NCBI GenBank assembly: GCA_045805065.1 | Contig: JBJMMA010000238.1 | Coordinates: forward strand, 1-51,683 | DNA: 51,683 nt | Reading direction: 5' to 3' | Origin: Bdellovibrionia bacterium | Lineage (GTDB): Bacteria; Bdellovibrionota; UBA1018 | Part shown: positions 27,705 to 35,988 of the stretch, piece by piece | Layout of the letters: each line of letters begins with the position of its first letter | Numbering within the stretch: the stretch's first letter is position 1 | Notes under the pieces: generated by a model | Told to the model about the DNA's origin: nothing | Database searches by the model: none | The model's input: only the letters and a program-made list of their open reading frames with translations | Position numbers and translations under genes: made by a program

Positions 27705-29126
27705 TTAGGAACTGGTTTCAATTCCGTAGGACTTAATCTTCTTATGAAGGTGGCTCCGCTCAACGCCTAAGACCTGGGCTGTCTTGGAAACGTTCCAGTC
27801 GTTCTCTTTCAGCGTCTTGAGGATGAACTCTTTTTCGAATTCCTGACGCGCATCGCGAAGGTTTCTGGCCGAGGTAATGGCCTCAACCGCATCCTGACGA
27901 GATCCGATCTGGATTTCTCCCGTTCTTTCGCCAAATTGCTGAACTAATGCCTCATCTTGAAGATGAGAGAGAAGACTTGCCGCTGAAATGACCTGATCGC
28001 CTTCAGCCTCCGTCGATAGAATCACTACGCGCTCGATGAGATTTTTGAGCTCACGAACGTTTCCAGGCCAGCTATAAGCAGTCAGAACGTCTCCAGCCTC
28101 AGGCGAAAGCTTGCGAAGCTTCTTTCCATGAACTCCTGAGAACTCCCTCAGGAAGTATTCGGCCAGGAGCGGGATGTCCTCCTTCCGCTCACGAAGAGGA
28201 GGAATATGGAAGGGAATGACGTTCAAGCGATAAAACAGGTCGCCACGGAATTGGCTTCGGCTGATTTCAGCCTTCAGATCCTTGTTCGTAGCGGCGACGA
28301 TGCGCACATCCACCGAAATGGTCTGGGTTCCGCCTACGCGCTCGAATTTCTGCTCCTGGATCACGCGCAAGACCTTGGCTTGAGTCTTCAACGACATATC
28401 GCCGATTTCGTCCAGAAAGAGTGTCCCACCGTGAGCAAGATCGAACTTACCCCGGCGAAGGCTCGTTGCGCCTGTGAATGCGCCCTTTTCATGACCAAAA
28501 AGCTCACTCTCGATGAGCTCCTCAGGGATCGCCGCGCAATTGATCTCGATAAAAGGCTTATTATAACGAGGCGAAAGCGCGTGAATGCTTTGGGCGATCA
28601 ATTCTTTGCCCGTGCCGTTCTCGCCCGTGATGAGAACCGATCCAGTGGTCGGCGCCACTCGGCGGACAAGCTCCTGGATTTGTTTCATGCCCGAGCTCTC
28701 GCCAACAAGCTTACGGGTCTTTTCCTGAACTTGTTTTCTCAGCGCCTGATTCTCACGCGCCAGATCCTGAACGCTCGAAGCGTTCTGCATCAGCACCAAA
28801 ATACGCTCAAGCGACAATGGCTTTTCGACAAAATCAAATGCGCCGAGCTTGGTGGCCCGCACGGCCGTCTCGATCGTGCCATGTCCAGACATCATGATGA
28901 CGAGTTGATCAGACCACTGGGCCTTGATCTGCTTCAGCGTCTCGATACCATCCATTTCAGGCATCCAGATATCCAGCAAAACAACATCGGGGCGCGCCTT
29001 GCGTATGGCTTCAAGCCCCTCTTTGCCCGAGCCTGCGACTGCGACCGCATACCCTTCATCCGAGAGAGCTCCGGTGAGAGATTTGCGAATCGAGGCTTCG
29101 TCATCAATGATCAGCACGGAACGCAT
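27705..29126 (-). CDS. sigma54-dependent response regulator, NtrX-like
   Basis: REC (LLDIWMP), AAA+ GENGTGKE and GAFTGA, Fis HTH. Confidence 0.9.
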   Translation of the reverse strand: MRSVLIIDDEASIRKSLTGALSDEGYAVAVAGSGKEGLEAIRKARPDVVLLDIWMPEMDGIETLKQIKAQWSDQLVIMMSGHGTIETAVRATKLGAFDFVEKPLSLERILVLMQNASSVQDLARENQALRKQVQEKTRKLVGESSGMKQIQELVRRVAPTTGSVLITGENGTGKELIAQSIHALSPRYNKPFIEINCAAIPEELIESELFGHEKGAFTGATSLRRGKFDLAHGGTLFLDEIGDMSLKTQAKVLRVIQEQKFERVGGTQTISVDVRIVAATNKDLKAEISRSQFRGDLFYRLNVIPFHIPPLRERKEDIPLLAEYFLREFSGVHGKKLRKLSPEAGDVLTAYSWPGNVRELKNLIERVVILSTEAEGDQVISAASLLSHLQDEALVQQFGERTGEIQIGSRQDAVEAITSARNLRDARQEFEKEFILKTLKENDWNVSKTAQVLGVERSHLHKKIKSYGIETSS

Positions 29127-29168
29127 GGTCTAGGTATCCTTATCTTACTTCGCATCTAACCACTTCGG

Positions 29169-31538
29169 TTAGCCACTTCGGTGTGCGGTCGGAAGCTCGA
29201 TCACGAACCGAGTTCCCTCCCCTGGTACCGAATGGACCCGAATAAATCCATCATGATCGTTCACGATACGCTTCACAATGGCAAGCCCCAGCCCGGTTCC
29301 TTCCGCTTTGGTGGAAAAATACGGCTCAAATACTCGGTTTTTCACATCCTCAGTCATTCCAGGGCCGTTGTCTTCGATCTCCAGGACGGCAATCTGAAGC
29401 TGACTGTTATAATGAGTGGAAAGCGTAATTTGATTTGCTTGATGACGACCAGGCACACCTGCGAGCGCCGCAACCGCGTTATCCAGAAGATTGATGATCA
29501 CTCGCTTGATCTGATCGCGATCGAAATCAAAGATAGGCAGCTTACTCTCGGCTGTTACCTTGAAATGAATCTCACTATGCGCTTGCTCGAAAAGAGAAAC
29601 AACTTCGCGAACTGCTGAATTGAGATCATGAGGTGCCGGATTGGCCTCGGGAAAGCGGGCGAAGTTGGAGAACTCATTCACCATCTCCTTGAGCTCATCC
29701 GTATGTTGAATGATGGTGTCCGTGCATTCTTTCAAAAGCGCGCCATCGCGTCCCCGATAGTCGCCCAGTCTGCGCTGAAGTCTTTGGGCGGAGAGCTTGA
29801 TCGGAGTCAGAGGATTTTTGATCTCATGAGCAATACGTCGCGCCACTTCACGCCAGGCCATTTCACGTTGACCCTTAATCAAGTGGGTCATGTCATCGAT
29901 CACGAGCACCAAACCCCAGGCATTGGGTGACTGATCCGATTCGCGAAGCGGGGTGACCATTGCAGCGAGCGTTCGTGTACTCTCTCCGCTCCGGTAATTC
30001 CAATGGGTGATATCGGCCGGATTGACGCCCAGTGAGGTTTCGTGACGAGGAATCTGTCGAGCGCGATCGATGATTTCGATCAAGGGTCCCGCATCGTTCT
30101 GAAAAACATCCTGATACGACTTTCCAAGCGCCTGTTCCGCGCCAATTCCAAGAAGCTGCGCCGCAGAGCGGTTCCAGGTCGTGATCTCATCGTTACTATC
30201 GATCGCAATCACACCCGCGCCGATATTGGCCAAAACCGCTTCAAGCTGGAGCTGGCGTTTTTCAAGATCCGTGCTCGCTTCAATGAGGCGCGCCCGGCTT
30301 TCCTTCAAGTCGTGGGTCATCTTGTTGAAGGATTCAACCAGAACCGTGATCTCATCATTTCCTGAGGCCAAAATCGAGACATCCAGGTTACCCGCACCGA
30401 CTTCTTGGGCTCCATGAACGAGACGCTCCACCGGAACGGTCAGTTCGCGAGCGATATAAAGACCAATCCAGATCGCAACCACGATGATGACCAGCGTGAT
30501 CATGATCAGAATGACAAGGTAAGCGGTCTTCATCGGATATTTTAAAGGATTGGTGTCCTTGTAGTCGTCAAAGACGCTGGCAATCTCATCCACTTTGTTC
30601 ACGAGACTGACTGGAATGTAGGAGTTCACCACCAAAACGCCCAGAACCGGACCGTGCGGAAGGCCTCCGGCTCGAACCGGCACCATGCAACGAATCAGGT
30701 CACCGCTTCCGATGTGTTGAATGACAGATCGAGCCTTGCCTGAGAAAGTTTCCTCAAGAAGATCCAAGGAAAGTCTGGGATAGGCCGATGTCAAGTCATT
30801 GACCGGCGCGCGTTGAGCCAATACGCGTTCATCCAATGGATCCGTATAGAACTCAATCGCATCCAGGGCCAACAACTCACGTTGAGAGGCCAGATAAGAG
30901 TCGAGTTCCTTTAATACAGGGCGCTGAACCCCATCTTTGTGAACTGCAAAACGCTTTCCAACTCCACCGGCAAGGTGTTCAGCAAAGTGTTTCGCGGTTT
31001 GATCGGTGTTTCGGTAGTAGGTACCCGTGATTTCAAGCGACGCCTGCAGGGTGTTCTGAATTTTCAGCGAGAACCACTTATCGAAGCTCGAATTGATGTA
31101 CATCGCCGAAATAATGAACAGCACGAGCGTCGGAATGATGGAAAAAGCCAGAAATGAGATGACGAGCTTCGTTTTAAGGCGTGCTCCGAGGACTTTGCGG
31201 CGGCGCTCAAGGAAAAGTTTGCCGATATTGCGCAGGACCAGCCAGACCAGGGCGATCAGCAGCACGATATTGATGTTGAGCAGCCCGAAAAAGAAGATGG
31301 AGTTTACGAAAGGCAGCGTGCTGGAGAGCTGACTGAGGCGAAACTCACCGATGGTGAGCGCAACGAAGAGCGCGCTCAATACCAGGATCATGATCGCTTC
31401 ACGACGACGCTTACGCCGCTCGCGCACACTGATCGCATCCACTTGGACTGCTTCCTGACTTTGAAGCGGCGCCCGCTTGCCGCTCTGGTCTTGGAGTTCC
31501 GGGGATTCGGAAACTGCAGTTTTAAGTTCGTCCGTCAT
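29169..31538 (-). CDS. NtrY-like membrane sensor histidine kinase (HAMP-PAS-HisKA-HATPase)
   Basis: AWREVARRIAHEIKNPLTPIKLSAQRL, N/G boxes; upstream of the NtrX-like gene. Confidence 0.92.
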   Translation of the reverse strand: MTDELKTAVSESPELQDQSGKRAPLQSQEAVQVDAISVRERRKRRREAIMILVLSALFVALTIGEFRLSQLSSTLPFVNSIFFFGLLNINIVLLIALVWLVLRNIGKLFLERRRKVLGARLKTKLVISFLAFSIIPTLVLFIISAMYINSSFDKWFSLKIQNTLQASLEITGTYYRNTDQTAKHFAEHLAGGVGKRFAVHKDGVQRPVLKELDSYLASQRELLALDAIEFYTDPLDERVLAQRAPVNDLTSAYPRLSLDLLEETFSGKARSVIQHIGSGDLIRCMVPVRAGGLPHGPVLGVLVVNSYIPVSLVNKVDEIASVFDDYKDTNPLKYPMKTAYLVILIMITLVIIVVAIWIGLYIARELTVPVERLVHGAQEVGAGNLDVSILASGNDEITVLVESFNKMTHDLKESRARLIEASTDLEKRQLQLEAVLANIGAGVIAIDSNDEITTWNRSAAQLLGIGAEQALGKSYQDVFQNDAGPLIEIIDRARQIPRHETSLGVNPADITHWNYRSGESTRTLAAMVTPLRESDQSPNAWGLVLVIDDMTHLIKGQREMAWREVARRIAHEIKNPLTPIKLSAQRLQRRLGDYRGRDGALLKECTDTIIQHTDELKEMVNEFSNFARFPEANPAPHDLNSAVREVVSLFEQAHSEIHFKVTAESKLPIFDFDRDQIKRVIINLLDNAVAALAGVPGRHQANQITLSTHYNSQLQIAVLEIEDNGPGMTEDVKNRVFEPYFSTKAEGTGLGLAIVKRIVNDHDGFIRVHSVPGEGTRFVIELPTAHRSG

Positions 31539-31675: not shown

Positions 31676-32085
31676 CACTTTAGGTGCCTTCAGACAGGGT
31701 CTGACGTGTCTGAAGCGCGCACTGTCGAGAAATTGATCACTTCAGAGCGAAGGAAGGATGCTTCAAGGATGTCCGCGGATCGCATTTTGCGAAAATTCTC
31801 CCAAAACAGCTTCTTTTCTGCACGATTTTGAGCGCGAAGATTTCTATTTTGAAACAGTCGCGGAGAAATTTGAGTGTCGAAAAGTTTTACAGAGATGAAA
31901 TTTGAGTGTCGTCGACGGAACGAACGCAAACTTTTTTTATTTTTTTTGTTACATTTTCTTGATCTCAAGAACTTTCAATGTAACATCATAGTTGAGTAAC
32001 GCGTTTTTTGCAGAGCAGAGAACGTAGATGCTCGAATCGAGTCGGCAGTGAAAACTGATCGACACCCATATGGAGGAAAAAAAAC

Positions 32086-32160
32086 ATGGCCACTAAGAAA
32101 AAAGCCACCAAGAAGAAAGCTACTAAGAAGAAAGCCACCAAGAAGAAGGCTAAGAAGTAA
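32086..32160 (+). CDS. 24-aa lysine-rich micro-protein MATKKKATKKKATKKKATKKKAKK (histone-H1-tail/protamine-like)
   Basis: TGGAGG RBS at 32071-32076, ATG 32086, TAA 32158-32160, only synonymous differences between repeat units, terminator downstream. Confidence 0.85.
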   Translation: MATKKKATKKKATKKKATKKKAKK

Positions 32161-32184
32161 TTTTTCTTCTTAAAGAAGTTCGAG

Positions 32185-32220
32185 AAGCCCTGAACCCCTG
32201 GTTCAGGGCTTTTTTATTTT
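32185..32220 (+). terminator. intrinsic terminator of the micro-protein gene, convergent with pyrD
   Basis: AAGCCCTGAAC-CCCTG-GTTCAGGGCTT followed by TTTTATTTT. Confidence 0.85.
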
Positions 32221-33257
32221 GATCGTTCGAAATGTGCGATTTTCTCGCTTAAAACAGCTGGAAATGAAGGGCCTCCATAGATCCAGCCCGAATAGATCTG
32301 CACCAGGTCCGCACCCAGGCGAAGTCTCTCCATCGCTTCTTCCGCTGTCAAAATTCCGCCCACTGAAACAATAGGAAGACGACTCACGGCGCGCGCATCG
32401 ACCAAGCTCCTTCTGGATTGCTCAGTCAGAACTCCTCCGCTCCATCCCCCCACTTGTCCTCGATGTTCACCACCGAGTGTGTTCGTTAAGATCCAACCGT
32501 CGATGGGTGCCTCTTGAGATGACTCAAGCTCCCTAATGAGGTGCGCAAGGCTTTCGCCCTGAAGCTCGGGGGCGATTTTGAGCAAAAGAGGAGGTTTGTT
32601 CGACCATCGAGAGATGATTTCATGAACCGCTGCGATGATCGGGCGCAATGCCTCAATCGTTTGAAGTGACCGAAGACCTGGAGTGTTAGGCGAACTCACG
32701 TTCACGACCATATAATCGGCCAGATTCTTGAAATAAGATGCCGCTTTAGCGTAATCGGAGGCCGCGTCTTCTAAAGACGTATCTTTATTCTTTCCCAGGT
32801 TCACCCCAACCCTGAAATGCGGCGGCAGATGCTCTCTCAGGCCAGTAAGGCGGCGAGAAACGACCTCAGCCCCTGCCCCGTTGAAGCCCATCCGATTAAA
32901 GACCGAAGCACGTGCCGGATCCCGGAACAGTCTGGGTCGTTCATTCCCAGGTTGAGGGCGTGGGGTGACGGTGCCGATTTCTGCAAAGCCAAACCCTAAA
33001 GATGGCAGAGCGGTCACGATCTCAGCGTCTTTATCAAATCCTGCAGCCAAGCCCACGCGGGAGCGGAAAGTCATTCCCAGGATCTTGGGCAATGCGGAAT
33101 CAGGATAGTATTGAGACGAAGCGCCGCTGATCAGCGTAAGCGCGTGAGCTTTCTCGCCCGTCTCAATCAGTCGAACCGTCAGTCGATGGGCACGCTCGGG
33201 GTCCAATCTAAATAAAAAGCGGCGAACCACTCTCCAGATAAACCCCCGAACTCCCAT
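32214..33257 (-). CDS. pyrD: quinone-dependent dihydroorotate dehydrogenase (class 2)
   Basis: GLAAGFDK, NRMGFNG, NVSSPNTPGLR, LLKIAPE. Confidence 0.95.
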   Translation of the reverse strand: MGVRGFIWRVVRRFLFRLDPERAHRLTVRLIETGEKAHALTLISGASSQYYPDSALPKILGMTFRSRVGLAAGFDKDAEIVTALPSLGFGFAEIGTVTPRPQPGNERPRLFRDPARASVFNRMGFNGAGAEVVSRRLTGLREHLPPHFRVGVNLGKNKDTSLEDAASDYAKAASYFKNLADYMVVNVSSPNTPGLRSLQTIEALRPIIAAVHEIISRWSNKPPLLLKIAPELQGESLAHLIRELESSQEAPIDGWILTNTLGGEHRGQVGGWSGGVLTEQSRRSLVDARAVSRLPIVSVGGILTAEEAMERLRLGADLVQIYSGWIYGGPSFPAVLSEKIAHFERSK

Positions 33258-34717
33258 TACTTGCCAGTCCTTTCAAATGCCTGCATGAAAAAGCCATCGC
33301 TTGGATCTGGGCCGAGATAACCGCCTTCTTTGGCCTTAAAGTCAGGGTGATTCTTCAAGAAGTCCTGAACGACGTCGAGTGTCTCGGCCTTACGGAAAGT
33401 GCAGGTTCCGAAGACAAGGCGCCCCCCCGGCGCAACGAGATCAGAGTAAAGCGCGAGCAAACGCTTTTGAATCTCAGGCATCTTCTTGAGCACTTCCTCG
33501 CCTTGACGCCACTTGATATCCGGGTTGCGTCTGAGAACGCCCCAACCGCTGCAAGGAGCATCGACCAGAACTACTTGTGCTGTTCTGCGGAAGCGTTTCA
33601 AGGATTCGAGTTCTTGTCCTTCTTTGAGAGCCAGGGTCTGGATGTTGTTAAAGCCCGCATGCTTGGCGCGGCGTCGAAGCGCCAAGAGCTTCTTATCGGA
33701 CGTATCATAAGCATAGACGCGGCCTTTGCCTTGAAGGGCATCCGCCATCGCAAGGCTTTTTCCCCCGGCGCCTGCGCATGCATCAATCACGGTCCATGCT
33801 GCAGTATCTTTTGGAAGCGCTGGCAGTTTCTTAGGTGCCTGAGCGGGGCCTGGCTCTTTTGAGAGCATGCTTCCGTAGAGTTCAGGCCAGAGCGCAAAGT
33901 AAGACATGACCTGAGAGCCTTCGTCTTGAATCTCAAACGCGCCTTGATCGTACCATTCGTTATGAAGAACAGGTGCGTAGCCCCCCAGACGGATTCCCAT
34001 AGGAGAGAGATCAGAAGGCTGCGCACTCACCGGAAGCTTGCTTCCCTCTTTGAGGCCCTTCAGAACATCGGCTACCTTGAATTTTCTTGAGACCCGCAAC
34101 GACAAGGGCGCTTCGTTTGCCAAAGCTTTGACGAGAGACTGAGCGGTTTCATTTCCCCACTCCTTCATCCACTCCTCGGTCATGTGGGAAGGATAATCAT
34201 CCAGCACCGGATCTGCTTGAACCGGACGATGAATCATTCCTTCGTACATTCGTTGCGCCAGAACGGAGGCAGGACGCCAGTTCTTGAGCTTGTCAGGAGA
34301 AAGCTTCCAAGGCTCCCCTGCAGGAACGCCAATGCCCATCGCCTCAGCTTGTGAAGCAGGACGAAGAAGAATTATGGGAACGATCCGCGCGAGGATCGAC
34401 TTCATGTTCTTGGCTTGCTTGGAGAGAGCCGAGTCCAGATGCACTGGAGTTGAAAAGAGATCTGACCAGAGGCCGTTGAAGGCTTTTTCGACCGCTTCTC
34501 GCTTTACGGGTGCTTGTCTTGGGGCAACCTCGGGGCGTTCACGTTCATCCGAACGTTCGCGTTCATCAGCAAACTCTGGGCGTTCACGCCTAAATGAATC
34601 ACGAGATCTATCTCTTTCAAAAGGTTTGGCAAAAGGTTTGGCAAACGATCTGCCTGAAGACTGATTAGAAGAAGATCTGGACGACGTGCGTTTAGTGGAG
34701 CGAGCTGGCTTTTTCAT
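33257..34717 (-). CDS. RsmB/NOP-family RNA m5C methyltransferase
   Basis: IQDEGSQ, DACAGAGGKS, VDAPCSG, RRNPDIKW, GTCT. Confidence 0.9.
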   Translation of the reverse strand: MKKPARSTKRTSSRSSSNQSSGRSFAKPFAKPFERDRSRDSFRRERPEFADERERSDERERPEVAPRQAPVKREAVEKAFNGLWSDLFSTPVHLDSALSKQAKNMKSILARIVPIILLRPASQAEAMGIGVPAGEPWKLSPDKLKNWRPASVLAQRMYEGMIHRPVQADPVLDDYPSHMTEEWMKEWGNETAQSLVKALANEAPLSLRVSRKFKVADVLKGLKEGSKLPVSAQPSDLSPMGIRLGGYAPVLHNEWYDQGAFEIQDEGSQVMSYFALWPELYGSMLSKEPGPAQAPKKLPALPKDTAAWTVIDACAGAGGKSLAMADALQGKGRVYAYDTSDKKLLALRRRAKHAGFNNIQTLALKEGQELESLKRFRRTAQVVLVDAPCSGWGVLRRNPDIKWRQGEEVLKKMPEIQKRLLALYSDLVAPGGRLVFGTCTFRKAETLDVVQDFLKNHPDFKAKEGGYLGPDPSDGFFMQAFERTGK

Positions 34718-34842: not shown

Positions 34843-35988
34843 ATGATTGATTTCTCTCTGACCGAAGACCAACTGCAGCTTCAAGACCTGGCCCGCAAGT
34901 TTGCCAGAGAGGAAATCATTCCAAAAGCCGCCCATCACGACGAGACTGGCGAATATCCTCATGAAATCGTGAAAAAAGCCTGGGAGCTTGGCCTCCTAAA
35001 CACCCACGTACCGACTGAGTACGATGGCCTGGGCTTAGGCACCCTTGAAGCCTGTATCATCGCTGAGGAGTTCGCCTATGGTTGCTCGGGGATTGCTACC
35101 GCCATGGAAGCGAACGCTCTGGCGGCAGCTCCGGTGATTATCGCTGGCAACCACGAGCAAAAAGACCAGTTCCTGGGAATGCTCACCCGCGAAGGCAAGC
35201 TTGCGGCTTATTGCGTGACCGAGCCAGGCGCTGGTTCTGACGTTACATCGATTCGAACGGTAGCCAAGAAAGATGGCACCGATTACGTGATCAATGGATC
35301 CAAAATGTGGATCACCAATGGATCGGTTGCAAGCTGGTACTTTGTATTGGCTTATACGGACCCTGCTGCCAAGCACAAGGGCATGTCAGGCTTCATCGTT
35401 CCGCGCGACACCCCAGGCATTACTGTTGGCAAGAAAGAATGGAACATGGGTCAGCACGCCAGTGATACGCGTGGGATCACGTTTGAAAACGTCCGCATCC
35501 CCGAGCGTTATCGCCTGGGTAAGGAAGGCGAGGGCTTCAAGATCGCCATGTCCGCTTTTGACCACACTCGTCCTCCGGTCGCCGCAGGAGCAGTAGGCGT
35601 TGCCCGCCGTGCGATGGATGAGGCCATCGAGTACGCCAAGACCCGCAAGACCTTCGGCGTTCCAATCGCACAGCATCAGTCTGTGAGCTTCATGATTGCC
35701 GATATGGCCAAAGACATCGAAGCAGCTCGCATGCTGGTCTATAAAGCCGGATGGACGATCGATCGTGGCGAGCGAAACACGAAGTTTGCGGCATTTGCCA
35801 AAGCCTTTGCAGCCGACACGTGCATGCGCGTGACCACCGATGCGGTTCAGGTCTTTGGTGGCTACGGCTACTCTTCAGAGTACCCGGTCGAGAAGCTCAT
35901 GCGCGACGCCAAGATCTATCAGATCTATGAAGGCACGAGCCAGATCCAGCGTCTGATCATCGCCAAAGAGATCTTTGATCGCTCCTGA
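34843..35988 (+). CDS. acyl-CoA dehydrogenase (MCAD-like)
   Basis: [38 protein letters not shown]. Confidence 0.95.

What the first reader, a model, noticed from the sequence alone, without database searches (positions are those of the whole stretch)
32071..32220. Stand-alone 24-aa gene M(ATKKK)4AKK: candidate minimal nucleoid-condensing peptide
Seen: strong RBS, 75-bp ORF and dedicated terminator form a complete unit missed by the ORF track. 14 of 24 residues are Lys, none acidic. The four units differ only at synonymous sites (GCC ACT AAG AAA AAA / GCC ACC AAG AAG AAA / GCT ACT AAG AAG AAA / GCC ACC AAG AAG AAG), which indicates selection on the peptide rather than DNA slippage. Known: Lys/Ala-rich repeats bind and compact DNA in histone H1 tails, chlamydial Hc1/Hc2, AlgP and the HupB tail, and Bdellovibrio attack-phase cells have very compact nucleoids. 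Inference: a protamine-like micro-protein, possibly tuned by Thr/Lys modification; RNA, ribosome or polyphosphate binding are alternatives. Trypsin proteomics would miss it.
Basis: partly seen in the sequence, partly recalled or inferred. Interest (0 to 1): 0.78.

Follow-up and report, generated by a model that had tools for sequence, protein, structure and literature searches.

The report
Conserved 14-lysine micro-protein gene
This is a real, never-annotated 24-codon gene of an uncultured soil Bdellovibrionota bacterium that makes a lysine-rich peptide with 14 positive charges, and similar tiny genes occur in many bacterial phyla, but what the peptide binds is still only inferred.

Summary
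Window 32086-32160 (+) encodes MATKKKATKKKATKKKATKKKAKK. It has its own promoter, a folded leader, a GGAGG ribosome-binding site and an intrinsic terminator.

Evidence that it is a gene:
- All 19 fetched relatives' loci carry a 20-27-residue version (18 distinct peptides of 20 with the window's own), mostly at the same place, between an NtrY-type kinase gene and pyrD.
- Lysine codons vary only A/G at the third base.
- Only K, A, T, S, V and M are used.
- 16 of 20 peptides have exactly 14 lysines, although their length varies.
- A 223-nt metatranscriptome contig spans 31994-32215. That is the predicted start site to the terminator.

It found such micro-ORFs in Planctomycetota, Verrucomicrobiota, Eisenbacteria, Proteobacteria and others. 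This scan's earlier notes record the same class on other DNA.

The same N-terminal lysine module is fused elsewhere to HU, SWIB, DksA-type and uS11 proteins.

My best reading is a free polycation that binds nucleic acid, with nucleoid DNA most likely. A ribosomal role is the main rival. No Pfam, NCBIfam or PDB match was found, and no paper. The link to predation or the attack phase is unsupported.

The parts
31932..31948 (+). A/T tract upstream of the promoter (UP-element-like)
   Evidence: One search gives the sequence. An A/T-rich tract stands at the same place in most orthologues in alignment A2. Its function is inferred.
31959..31964 (+). -35 hexamer TTGATC
   Evidence: In A2 TTG is invariant and CTTGATCT nearly so. 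A 16-nt spacer separates it from the -10. The motif pair occurs once in the own genome.
31981..31986 (+). -10 hexamer TAACAT, within the conserved GTAACATC
   Evidence: Nearly invariant in A2. GTAACAT is present in 18 of 20 orthologues.
31994..32215 (+). Predicted transcript of about 222 nt
   Evidence: a 223-nt contig of RNA run X15 lies on exactly 31994-32215, whole contig, with 4 differences and 1 gap. 31994 is 1 nt from the start site expected from the -10. Contigs of three other RNA runs lie within or just past it: 32031-32206, 32052-32188 and 32063-32261. MFE -70.9 kcal/mol, z = -6.0 against shuffles.
31994..32063 (+). 5' leader with two stem-loops (31994-32033 and 32041-32063) that end before the SD
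   Evidence: fold; orthologues have a 5'-proximal stem-loop at the same place with unrelated sequences (-6.1 to -30.8 kcal/mol).
32072..32076 (+). Shine-Dalgarno GGAGG, 9 nt before the ATG
   Evidence: An SD was matched in 20 of 20 orthologues. The consensus is AACGGAGGAAA.
32086..32160 (+). 24-codon ORF, MATKKKATKKKATKKKATKKKAKK, plus TAA
32161..32171 (+). Pyrimidine tract TTTTTCTTCTT directly after the stop, complementary to the AAGAAG Lys codons
   Evidence: the 16 nt after the stop average 74% pyrimidine across 20 orthologues. The mean predicted probability of pairing with the ORF is 0.72. A TTCTT/CTTCT-type motif is present in 14 of 20. No shuffle control was run.
32182..32220 (+). Intrinsic terminator: hairpin plus T-run. 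It ends a few bases from the stop of the convergent pyrD (32214)
   Evidence: 13 consensus pairs, 8 with changes on both sides.

Best explanation
This is a translated, stand-alone micro-gene. A sigma-70-type promoter (TTGATC, 16 nt, TAACAT, with an upstream A/T tract) makes a transcript of about 222 nt. Its 5' end is capped by a stem-loop, its SD is strong and left single-stranded, and it ends at an intrinsic terminator.

The product is a 24-residue peptide, probably 23 after removal of Met before Ala. It is made only of Lys and small residues and carries 14 lysines.

I infer that it is a disordered soluble polycation. It would act by non-sequence-specific electrostatic binding to nucleic acid, a genetically encoded, high-valence counter-ion. 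Nucleoid DNA is the most likely target, in the manner of the Lys-rich tails of histone H1-like proteins; RNA is a possible second target.

Shown here: the gene, its conservation, protein-level selection, the conserved lysine number, and its presence in RNA libraries.
Inferred: translation, the disordered state, and every statement about binding and compaction.
For: Gene and selection:
- All 19 fetched relatives' loci and the window's own carry the unit; the 20 peptides comprise 18 distinct sequences.
- Two more family members that the DNA search had missed carry it beside pyrD.
- pyrD lies convergently downstream in 15 of the 19 relatives' loci. The NtrY-type kinase lies upstream at 63% identity or more in 6 of them, within loci of about 3 kb.
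- Codon-position variability is 0.123/0.063/0.313. At Lys columns positions 1 and 2 are almost invariant, and position 3 is only A or G (one AAC-type exception). There is no Arg and no Asn.
- Residues used are K 282, A 80, T 66, M 20, S 9 and V 8, and nothing else. The Lys count is 14 in 16 of 20 peptides while length runs from 20 to 27.
- A-runs are 6 or shorter in 19 of 20 ORFs.

Expression unit:
- Promoter, SD and terminator are conserved.
- A 5' hairpin is present in the orthologues, with different sequences.
- RNA-library contigs from 4 runs of 4 studies cover the unit. One of them is exactly 31994-32215.

Target:
- The same N-terminal M-A-(x)-KKK-xx-KKK module precedes HU (2), SWIB (3), a DksA-type zinc finger (1) and uS11 (1). 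That is 7 proteins among the 22 longer forms I scanned.
- The lysine segments give sub-threshold hits to Pfam HC2, histone H1-like (17-32 bits against a cut-off of 40).
- Spacer residues and repeat register drift between orthologues while total charge is kept. That fits fuzzy electrostatic binding better than a packed site.
Against: - There is no direct evidence of translation, of the peptide itself, or of any binding.
- The fusion argument is indirect and small: 8 of 22 longer forms had a recognised domain, one of them ribosomal and one a DUF.
- A fixed lysine number could equally mean a binding site of defined size, for example in the ribosome.
- The window's peptide gives no Pfam or NCBIfam family even at E <= 10. 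The alignment profile of the 20 orthologues gives no PDB match at E <= 10.
- The genome already has five HU/IHF-family matches, so no gap in the nucleoid-protein set points to this peptide.
- RNA-library contigs cannot prove transcription, because DNA carry-over is possible. They also give no expression level.
- The discriminator after the -10 is AT-rich. That says nothing decisive about the target.
Confidence: 0.5

Rival explanations
1. It is an unrecognised ribosome-bound micro-protein, analogous to bS22/eL41, bL37 or bTHX. The peptide would fill an rRNA pocket, and its lysine number would be fixed by the size of that pocket.
For: - Size and charge are in the range of the known micro ribosomal proteins.
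- bS22 of Borrelia was likewise unannotated, is 61% Lys+Arg, and its authors expect it in more bacteria (PMC10618245, passages read).
- The lysine number is conserved (14 in 16 of 20).
- The strong SD, stabilising leader and own terminator suggest high expression.
- One longer form is uS11 with the same N-terminal module.
- Earlier notes of this scan named the same class as the closest known. These are AI notes, not evidence.
Against: - No NCBIfam or Pfam ribosomal family matches, even at E <= 10.
- Spacer residues vary (A/T/V/S), and indels shift the register of the Lys triplets between orthologues. bS22, by contrast, shows one residue change across Borrelia.
- There is no linkage to ribosomal genes here or in 54 micro-ORF loci of other phyla.
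- The own genome has bS21 (2 matches) and bL36, so neither of these two small ribosomal proteins is missing.
- There is no Arg at all, unlike the known examples.
Confidence: 0.22
2. The act of translation, or the RNA itself, is the function. Candidates are a lysine- or Lys-tRNA-sensing leader (attenuator), a dual-function Hfq-type RNA, or a transcript whose read-through would be antisense to pyrD.
For: - The layout is a run of 14 identical-amino-acid codons followed by a terminator.
- There is a sub-threshold Rfam Thr_leader hit (26.8 bits, gathering score 55).
- The conserved CU tract after the stop is predicted to pair with the Lys codons (mean P 0.72). This could give translation-dependent alternative folds.
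- AAR repeats are A-R-N triplets, and the RNA ends in a hairpin plus U-tail, which recalls Hfq-binding RNAs (recalled knowledge).
- pyrD is convergent and ends at the terminator in most relatives.
Against: - There is no co-directional gene to control. The next + strand ORF of 150 codons or more starts at 34843, beyond two convergent genes.
- The Rfam score is far below the gathering score.
- An A-R-N constraint alone would allow AAY (Asn) and AGN codons, which are essentially absent.
- SD, ATG, stop and lysine number are conserved.
- Look-alike micro-genes in other phyla sit in unrelated contexts.
Confidence: 0.1
3. The peptide acts on another polyanion or surface, such as polyphosphate, membranes or prey-cell envelopes (an antimicrobial or cell-penetrating oligolysine).
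For: Oligolysines bind any polyanion (general knowledge). The organism belongs to a phylum that contains predators; relatives in the public records are labelled Bdellovibrionales, Bacteriovoracaceae or Oligoflexia. One look-alike micro-ORF in another phylum lies next to a PPK2 gene (L070).
Against: - The peptide has no signal peptide and no hydrophobic face; its only residues are K, A, T, S, V and M.
- Look-alike genes are widespread in phyla not known as predators.
- There is no consistent linkage to polyphosphate or secretion genes.
Confidence: 0.08
4. The coding strand is the other one: a hydrophobic (FFLVA)n peptide of 51 codons on the minus strand (31986-32141), for instance a type I toxin.
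For: Two of the three antisense frames are free of stops across the ORF in all 20 orthologues. The window has a 51-codon TTG-started ORF there.
Against: - Open antisense frames follow from the AAR composition.
- 5 of 20 orthologues have no antisense ORF of 30 codons or more with a start codon. Where such ORFs exist, their starts, frames and lengths differ, and only 2 of the listed ORFs have an SD-like motif.
- Promoter, SD, ATG, the T-run of the terminator and the codon-position pattern all point to the + strand.
Confidence: 0.02

Closest known systems
Lys/Ala-rich histone H1-like proteins and tails of bacteria (chlamydial Hc2, Pfam PF07382; Lys-rich tails of HU-type proteins)
   Same: Lysine-dominated low-complexity repeats with small spacer residues and a period of about 5. 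The same N-terminal module as here is fused to HU and SWIB domains in other bacteria. Such segments give weak HC2 hits.
   Different: - This is a free 24-residue peptide with no folded domain.
- It has no Pfam match even at E <= 10.
- It has no Arg and no Pro.
- Its lysine number is fixed.
- That Hc2 and similar tails bind DNA is recalled knowledge, not tested here.
ScvA and Hq1 of Coxiella burnetii
   Same: Small basic DNA-binding proteins enriched in a compact-nucleoid cell form (PMC4766238, one passage read). ScvA is the nearest precedent for a peptide-sized bacterial nucleoid protein.
   Different: By recall ScvA is rich in Arg and Gln, not Lys-only. No developmental regulation is known for the present gene.
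Micro ribosomal proteins bS22/eL41/mS38, bL37 and bTHX
   Same: They have 24-33 residues, are extremely basic, are often unannotated, and are encoded by tiny separate genes (PMC10618245, passages read).
   Different: Those proteins have position-specific, Arg-containing sequences that are almost invariant within a lineage, and they match curated models. This peptide matches none, and its spacers and register drift.
Leader peptides of amino-acid attenuators (thr, his, leu operon leaders)
   Same: A short ORF with a run of codons for one amino acid, followed by a terminator. There is a weak Rfam Thr_leader hit.
   Different: There is no downstream co-directional operon. The score is far below the gathering threshold. 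The peptide's charge number, not just its codon run, is conserved.
Poly-lysine micro-genes noted earlier in this scan (Acidobacteriota, Vicinamibacteria, Planctomycetota, Chloroflexota, Patescibacteria)
   Same: The same architecture: own promoter, folded leader, SD, a Lys-only-charged ORF of 13-37 codons, and a terminator. One note reports a fixed charge number, 11. My own scan independently found the class in many phyla.
   Different: Those are other lineages, with other flanking genes and other lysine numbers. Whether they are homologous or convergent is open. They are AI notes, not publications.

Membership tests
Histone H1-like nucleoprotein HC2 (PF07382) | Significant match to the family model | tested here: not met
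   no Pfam family at E <= 10 for the 24-aa peptide. Longer relatives of the module reach only 17-32 bits against a cut-off of 40.
Histone H1-like nucleoprotein HC2 (PF07382) | Lys-rich short-period repeats with small spacer residues | tested here: met
   (A/T/V/S)2-KKK repeats with 58% Lys.
Histone H1-like nucleoprotein HC2 (PF07382) | Binds and compacts DNA | not testable with these tools
   Needs a synthetic peptide and DNA-binding and condensation assays.
Micro ribosomal proteins (bS22, bL37, bTHX, eL41) | Match to curated NCBIfam or Pfam ribosomal models | tested here: not met
   no family at E <= 10.
Micro ribosomal proteins (bS22, bL37, bTHX, eL41) | Position-specific sequence conservation within a lineage | tested here: not met
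   mean column identity is 69%, spacer residues vary, and indels shift the Lys triplets. Compare one change across Borrelia bS22.
Micro ribosomal proteins (bS22, bL37, bTHX, eL41) | Physically part of the ribosome | not testable with these tools
   Needs ribosome purification with mass spectrometry or cryo-EM. The PDB sequence search found nothing.
Leader-peptide transcription attenuator (Rfam Thr_leader RF00506 type) | Score at or above the Rfam gathering threshold | tested here: not met
   26.8 bits against 55.
Leader-peptide transcription attenuator (Rfam Thr_leader RF00506 type) | A regulated gene downstream on the same strand | tested here: not met
   pyrD and an RsmB/F-type gene are convergent. 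The next + strand ORF starts at 34843. The layout is the same in most relatives.
Leader-peptide transcription attenuator (Rfam Thr_leader RF00506 type) | Alternative pairing that competes with the terminator | tested here: inconclusive
   the CU tract pairs with the Lys codons in predicted folds of all 20 orthologues, but no competition with the terminator stem was shown.
Type I toxin on the opposite strand | Conserved hydrophobic ORF with a start codon and SD on the minus strand | tested here: not met
Poly-lysine micro-gene class (this scan; unpublished as far as searched) | Stand-alone promoter, leader, SD, Lys-only-charged ORF of 30 codons or fewer, and terminator, conserved among relatives | tested here: met
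   Presence of the class in other phyla.

The most novel reading that the evidence does not exclude
Bacteria of many phyla encode 'macro-polyamines': free oligolysine peptides whose valence is fixed per lineage. In the loci I fetched the number is 14 here, 13 in Eisenbacteria-labelled MAGs, 10 in Reyranella-type and 12 in Steroidobacteraceae-type genomes. Their cellular concentration would tune the compaction and phase behaviour of the nucleoid, and perhaps of ribosomes. On this reading the gene is a missing, general component of bacterial chromatin physics, overlooked because it is too short for gene callers and is destroyed by trypsin.
Probability: 0.3. Interest if true: 0.85.

Novelty: new variant of a known kind. 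Interest (0 to 1): 0.62.

Why it matters
If the peptide is made, it is one of the shortest conserved bacterial proteins. It belongs to a class that gene callers and trypsin proteomics both miss, yet the class is present in many soil and aquatic phyla.

The lysine number is kept while length, spacers and repeat register drift. That is an unusual, quantitative constraint, and it makes a simple hypothesis testable: valence-tuned binding to a polyanion. The tests need only a synthetic peptide and a knock-out.

It would add a new player either to bacterial chromatin or to the list of lineage-specific ribosomal micro-proteins. It would also argue for adding such micro-genes to annotation pipelines.

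Tried and rejected
- The search for homologous proteins refuses queries under 40 aa. The search of protein representatives, structure prediction, the protein-atlas search and complex prediction need 30 aa or more and were not used. No large-database protein search and no fold of the peptide was therefore possible.
- An exact look-up of the window's peptide and five orthologous peptides in the protein collection found none.
- A PDB profile search found nothing.
- Pfam and NCBIfam found nothing.
- The Rfam hits are all far below gathering scores (snoRNA 30.9/50, Thr_leader 26.8/55, PyrR 24.5/54, a lncRNA 16.6/50) and are treated as chance.
- Searching the own genome for the promoter motif, to find a regulon, gave only this locus for TTGAT-N16-19-GTAACAT.
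- Gene neighbourhoods of 54 micro-ORFs in other phyla (103 flanking ORFs) share no function. Two lie next to Orn/DAP-decarboxylase-type genes (L038, L059) and one next to PPK2 (L070). I read these as chance.
- I tried to link the gene to the 8 attack-phase sRNAs of B. bacteriovorus HD100 (PMC3627812: section 16 and Table S1 rows read). HD100 pyrD (Bd0715) has no adjacent intergenic gap, and no sRNA lies there. APsRNA5 (176 nt) lies between Bd0652 and Bd0654, but I could not read the HD100 sequence, so no link can be made. Fig. S1 (PDF) and file s004 (.doc) were not readable.
- Flanking parts of the window had no RNA-contig cover.
- NAP and ribosomal-protein repertoire of the own genome: HU/IHF 5 matches, PF00808 histone fold 0 (assembly 94% complete), bS21 2, bL36 1. 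This did not discriminate between the hypotheses.
- The antisense hydrophobic ORF is rejected.
- Literature: no paper holds any of six peptide strings. Three word searches listed nothing on Lys-rich bacterial micro-ORFs among the titles shown. Subscription journals are not covered.

Full report
**1. The observation**

- ATG at 32086 and TAA at 32158-32160.
- The product is MATKKKATKKKATKKKATKKKAKK, with 14 Lys and no acidic residue.
- The four ATKKK units have the stated synonymous codon differences.
- GGAGG lies at 32072-32076, 9 nt before the start.
- A 15-pair hairpin at 32182-32214 is followed by a T-run.

The consensus scan alone is not significant: 2 terminator-like sites against 1.2 +/- 1.2 in shuffles. 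The case rests on comparison with relatives.

**2. Conservation**

*DNA search.* A search with 32040-32225 matched 28 of 41 genomes, counting the window's own assembly. In the window's family it matched 18 of 24.

*The fetched loci.* All 20 fetched loci (the window's own and 19 relatives) contain a 20-27-codon ORF of the form M-A-(T)-KKK-xx-KKK-xx-KKK. Each has a GGAGG-type SD 8-10 nt upstream and a G+C-rich hairpin plus T-run downstream. The 20 peptides comprise 18 distinct sequences.

*Missed members.* I checked five family members that had no DNA match, looking for pyrD. Three had a pyrD locus.
- Two of these (G006, G017) carry the micro-ORF next to pyrD: 23 aa with 14 Lys, and 19 aa with 13 Lys.
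- The third (G009) has a more divergent basic 23-codon ORF with an SD and a terminator about 1 kb away.

*Synteny.* The position is conserved.
- pyrD lies convergently downstream in 15 of the 19 relatives' loci.
- The NtrY-type histidine kinase lies divergently upstream where the loci reach far enough.
- An RsmB/F-type methyltransferase gene follows pyrD.

*Phylum sample.* A profile search over 301 genomes of the phylum gave 63 with a match.
- Matches in short open frames that start at profile position 1 concentrate in the window's family (21 of 34) and a few neighbouring families.
- In the largest other family, 22 of 67 genomes matched. All but one match (a 43-codon frame at a contig end) lay in open frames of 63 codons or more.
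- The profile is weak for a 24-residue query: the self-hit has E = 0.003. These are therefore lower bounds.

**3. Coding signature**

On the codon alignment, the mean minority-base fraction is 0.123, 0.063 and 0.313 for codon positions 1, 2 and 3.
- At the Lys columns, positions 1 and 2 are invariant or nearly so.
- Position 3 is A or G only, with one exception.
- An RNA-level A-R-N constraint would not explain this, because AAY and AGN codons are essentially absent.

The 20 peptides use only six residue types: K 282, A 80, T 66, M 20, S 9 and V 8. There is no Arg, Asp, Glu, Gly, Pro or aromatic residue.

The lysine count is 14 in 16 of 20 peptides (13 in two, 15 in one, 17 in one). Length meanwhile ranges from 20 to 27, and the register of the triplets shifts through indels.

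Lys codons are 183 AAG to 99 AAA. A-runs stay at 6 or fewer in 19 of 20 ORFs.

The hydrophobic ORF on the opposite strand is an artefact of composition.
- 5 of 20 orthologues lack any such ORF with a start codon.
- Where one exists, starts and frames differ, and SD-like motifs are nearly absent.

**4. The expression unit**

*Promoter.* Alignment A2 shows a nearly invariant CTTGATCT ... TCAAnGTAACATC block. I read it as -35 TTGATC (31959-31964), a 16-nt spacer and -10 TAACAT (31981-31986), preceded by an A/T tract. The motif pair is unique in the genome.

*Leader.* Each orthologue has a stem-loop close to the predicted 5' end. It ends a few bases before the SD, and its sequence differs from one orthologue to the next. 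I take this as a stabilising 5' hairpin that leaves the SD free.

*After the stop.* A pyrimidine tract follows the stop codon: 74% C/T over 16 nt on average. It is predicted to pair with the AAGAAG Lys codons (mean probability 0.72). I ran no shuffle control for this.

*Terminator.* The stem has 13 consensus pairs, 8 with compensatory changes.

*Whole transcript.* The 223-nt transcript folds at -70.9 kcal/mol, z = -6.0.

**5. RNA evidence**

Six RNA runs held about a tenth of the sampled words of a 1.2-kb stretch around the gene. I laid four of them, from four studies.
- X15: a 223-nt contig lies, over its whole length, on 31994-32215. That runs from 1 nt beyond the start site expected from the -10 to the U-run of the terminator.
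- The other three runs gave contigs on 32031-32206, 32052-32188 and 32063-32261. The last has 14 differences and is likely a relative.

Contigs cannot prove transcription or give levels, and DNA carry-over cannot be excluded. Still, one contig is bounded by the predicted promoter and terminator.

Several other contigs matched only about 35 nt of the Lys codons. Their loose ends show other SD-ATG-GCT-AAG... units, which are similar genes of other organisms in the same RNA libraries.

**6. Beyond the phylum**

I scanned one genome per species for ATGGCN-(0-3 nt)-KKK-xx-KKK-xx-KKK.
- Of 118 in-frame matches, 78 lie in ORFs of at most 45 codons. A few are cut by the end of the fetched DNA.
- Many have an SD and a downstream hairpin.
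- Record titles name Planctomycetota/Phycisphaerae, Verrucomicrobiota (Udaeobacter), Eisenbacteria, Reyranella, Steroidobacteraceae, Nitrospinae, Acidobacteriota, Patescibacteria-type, an actinobacterium and Bdellovibrionota.

Within a lineage, both the flanks and the peptide are conserved. Examples are nine Reyranella-type loci with MAAKKKAAKKKAAKKKK(Q/I) after a ribonucleotide reductase gene, and Udaeobacter loci between CoaBC-type and inositol-monophosphatase genes. Across lineages no neighbour is shared.

Earlier notes of this scan describe the same class in five or more other phyla. They are unchecked AI notes. My reached the same picture independently, before I read them.

**7. Clue to the target**

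The pattern scan also hit longer ORFs (40 of the 118 in-frame matches); I scanned 22 of them against Pfam. In 8 of these the same N-terminal module is followed by a recognised domain:
- HU/IHF (2)
- SWIB (3)
- a DksA/TraR zinc finger (1)
- ribosomal uS11 (1)
- DUF2934 (1)

The lysine segments give sub-threshold HC2 (histone H1-like) hits. Most partners act on DNA or on the transcription machinery, and one is ribosomal. This is the main basis for ranking DNA above the ribosome as the target, and it is indirect.

**8. What it is not**

- It is not an attenuator of a downstream gene. The next + strand ORF of 150 codons or more starts 2.6 kb away, beyond two convergent genes. The Thr_leader hit is far below threshold.
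- It is not a member of any curated protein family.
- It has no relative in the PDB.
- It is not tied to predation or the attack phase on present evidence. See the distribution above. In HD100 the pyrD locus has no such gap, and none of the eight published attack-phase sRNAs lies there. I could not read the HD100 sequence to test the sRNAs themselves.

**9. Mechanism and odds**

| Reading | Odds |
|---|---|
| Free disordered polycation binding nucleic acid non-specifically, nucleoid DNA first | about 0.5 |
| Ribosome-bound micro-protein | about 0.2 |
| Function in translation or in the RNA itself | about 0.1 |
| Another polyanion or surface | about 0.08 |
| Opposite-strand gene | about 0.02 |

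That this is a real gene I hold at about 0.9.

The conserved lysine number is the most telling unexplained feature. It fits either a valence-tuned condensing agent or a site of fixed size.

**10. Novelty**

No paper in the searchable library holds any of six peptide strings. Three word searches brought up nothing on such genes. Subscription journals and closed supplements are not covered.

The nearest published precedents are:
- Lys-rich H1-like proteins;
- the small basic SCV proteins ScvA and Hq1 of Coxiella (PMC4766238, one passage);
- the unannotated micro ribosomal proteins (PMC10618245, passages).

I class this as a new variant of a known kind: a stand-alone, minimal Lys-rich polycation. 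It is the Bdellovibrionota member of a class that this scan has met before on other DNA.

Noticed in passing
window 31958-31980 and the same block in L003-L019 (alignment A2): The promoter spacer is flanked by inverted half-sites, CTTGA(T) ... (A)TCAAG. L007 has TTGATCTC-N4-GAGATCAA and L014 has CTTGAT-N10-ATCAAG. By eye about half of the orthologues show this, and the TCAAnG just before the -10 is nearly invariant. It may be an operator for a dimeric regulator that overlaps the core promoter.
   Followed up: partly
window 32161-32171 and orthologues: A CU-rich tract immediately after the stop codon is complementary to the AAGAAG lysine codons and is conserved in the family. It may protect the A-rich ORF from RNases or make the fold depend on translation. 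No control was run.
   Followed up: partly
L039:1501-2361, L068:751-1548, L075:745-1545 (Bdellovibrionales/Bdellovibrionota MAGs): These are proteins of 266-287 aa. Each has a long N-terminal (xxKKK)n region, a conserved Cys-rich block (C-x-x-x-x-C ... C-R-x-H-Y type) and an acidic C-terminal tail. Pfam finds no domain beyond weak HC2 hits.
   Followed up: partly
L058:1015-1548, L082:1252-1545, L138:1-348; L063:1501-1896, L092:1126-1548; L072:668-1069; L086:1446-2180: SWIB, HU, uS11 and DksA-type zinc-finger proteins of various phyla carry the same M-A-(x)-KKK-xx-KKK N-terminal extension. In L058 it is a near-perfect (ATKKK)x18.
   Followed up: yes
window 27705-31538 (-): An NtrY-type sensor kinase (NtrY_N, HAMP, PAS, HisKA, HATPase) and a sigma-54-dependent response regulator (NtrX-like) are transcribed divergently from the micro-gene. 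A prolyl-tRNA synthetase gene lies beyond them.
   Followed up: partly
window 33257-34717 (-): The RsmB/F-type rRNA methyltransferase has an N-terminal low-complexity extension of about 100 residues that mixes basic (K/R/S) and acidic (E/R/D repeat) stretches.
   Followed up: no
G000 contigs C137 (about 10326, +) and C158 (about 1153, -): The same genome encodes a 145-aa protein with an AKKA-type Lys/Ala-rich N-terminus and a 134-aa protein with a TKKKPAAKKATKKKAAK C-terminal tail. A search for the PF00808 histone fold found nothing in this 94%-complete assembly.
   Followed up: partly
Read laying, loose ends at 32098-32161: Soil, plant and rhizosphere metatranscriptome contigs with depths of 11-33 share only the Lys-codon stretch and continue into other SD-ATG-GCT-AAG... 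units. Lys-rich ORF transcripts of other organisms are therefore present in the same RNA libraries.
   Followed up: no
L084:1501-1640 and L107: An Elusimicrobia MAG has two Lys-rich micro-ORFs in tandem, the second starting about 25 nt after the first stop and with its own SD. L107 has nested in-frame starts.
   Followed up: no
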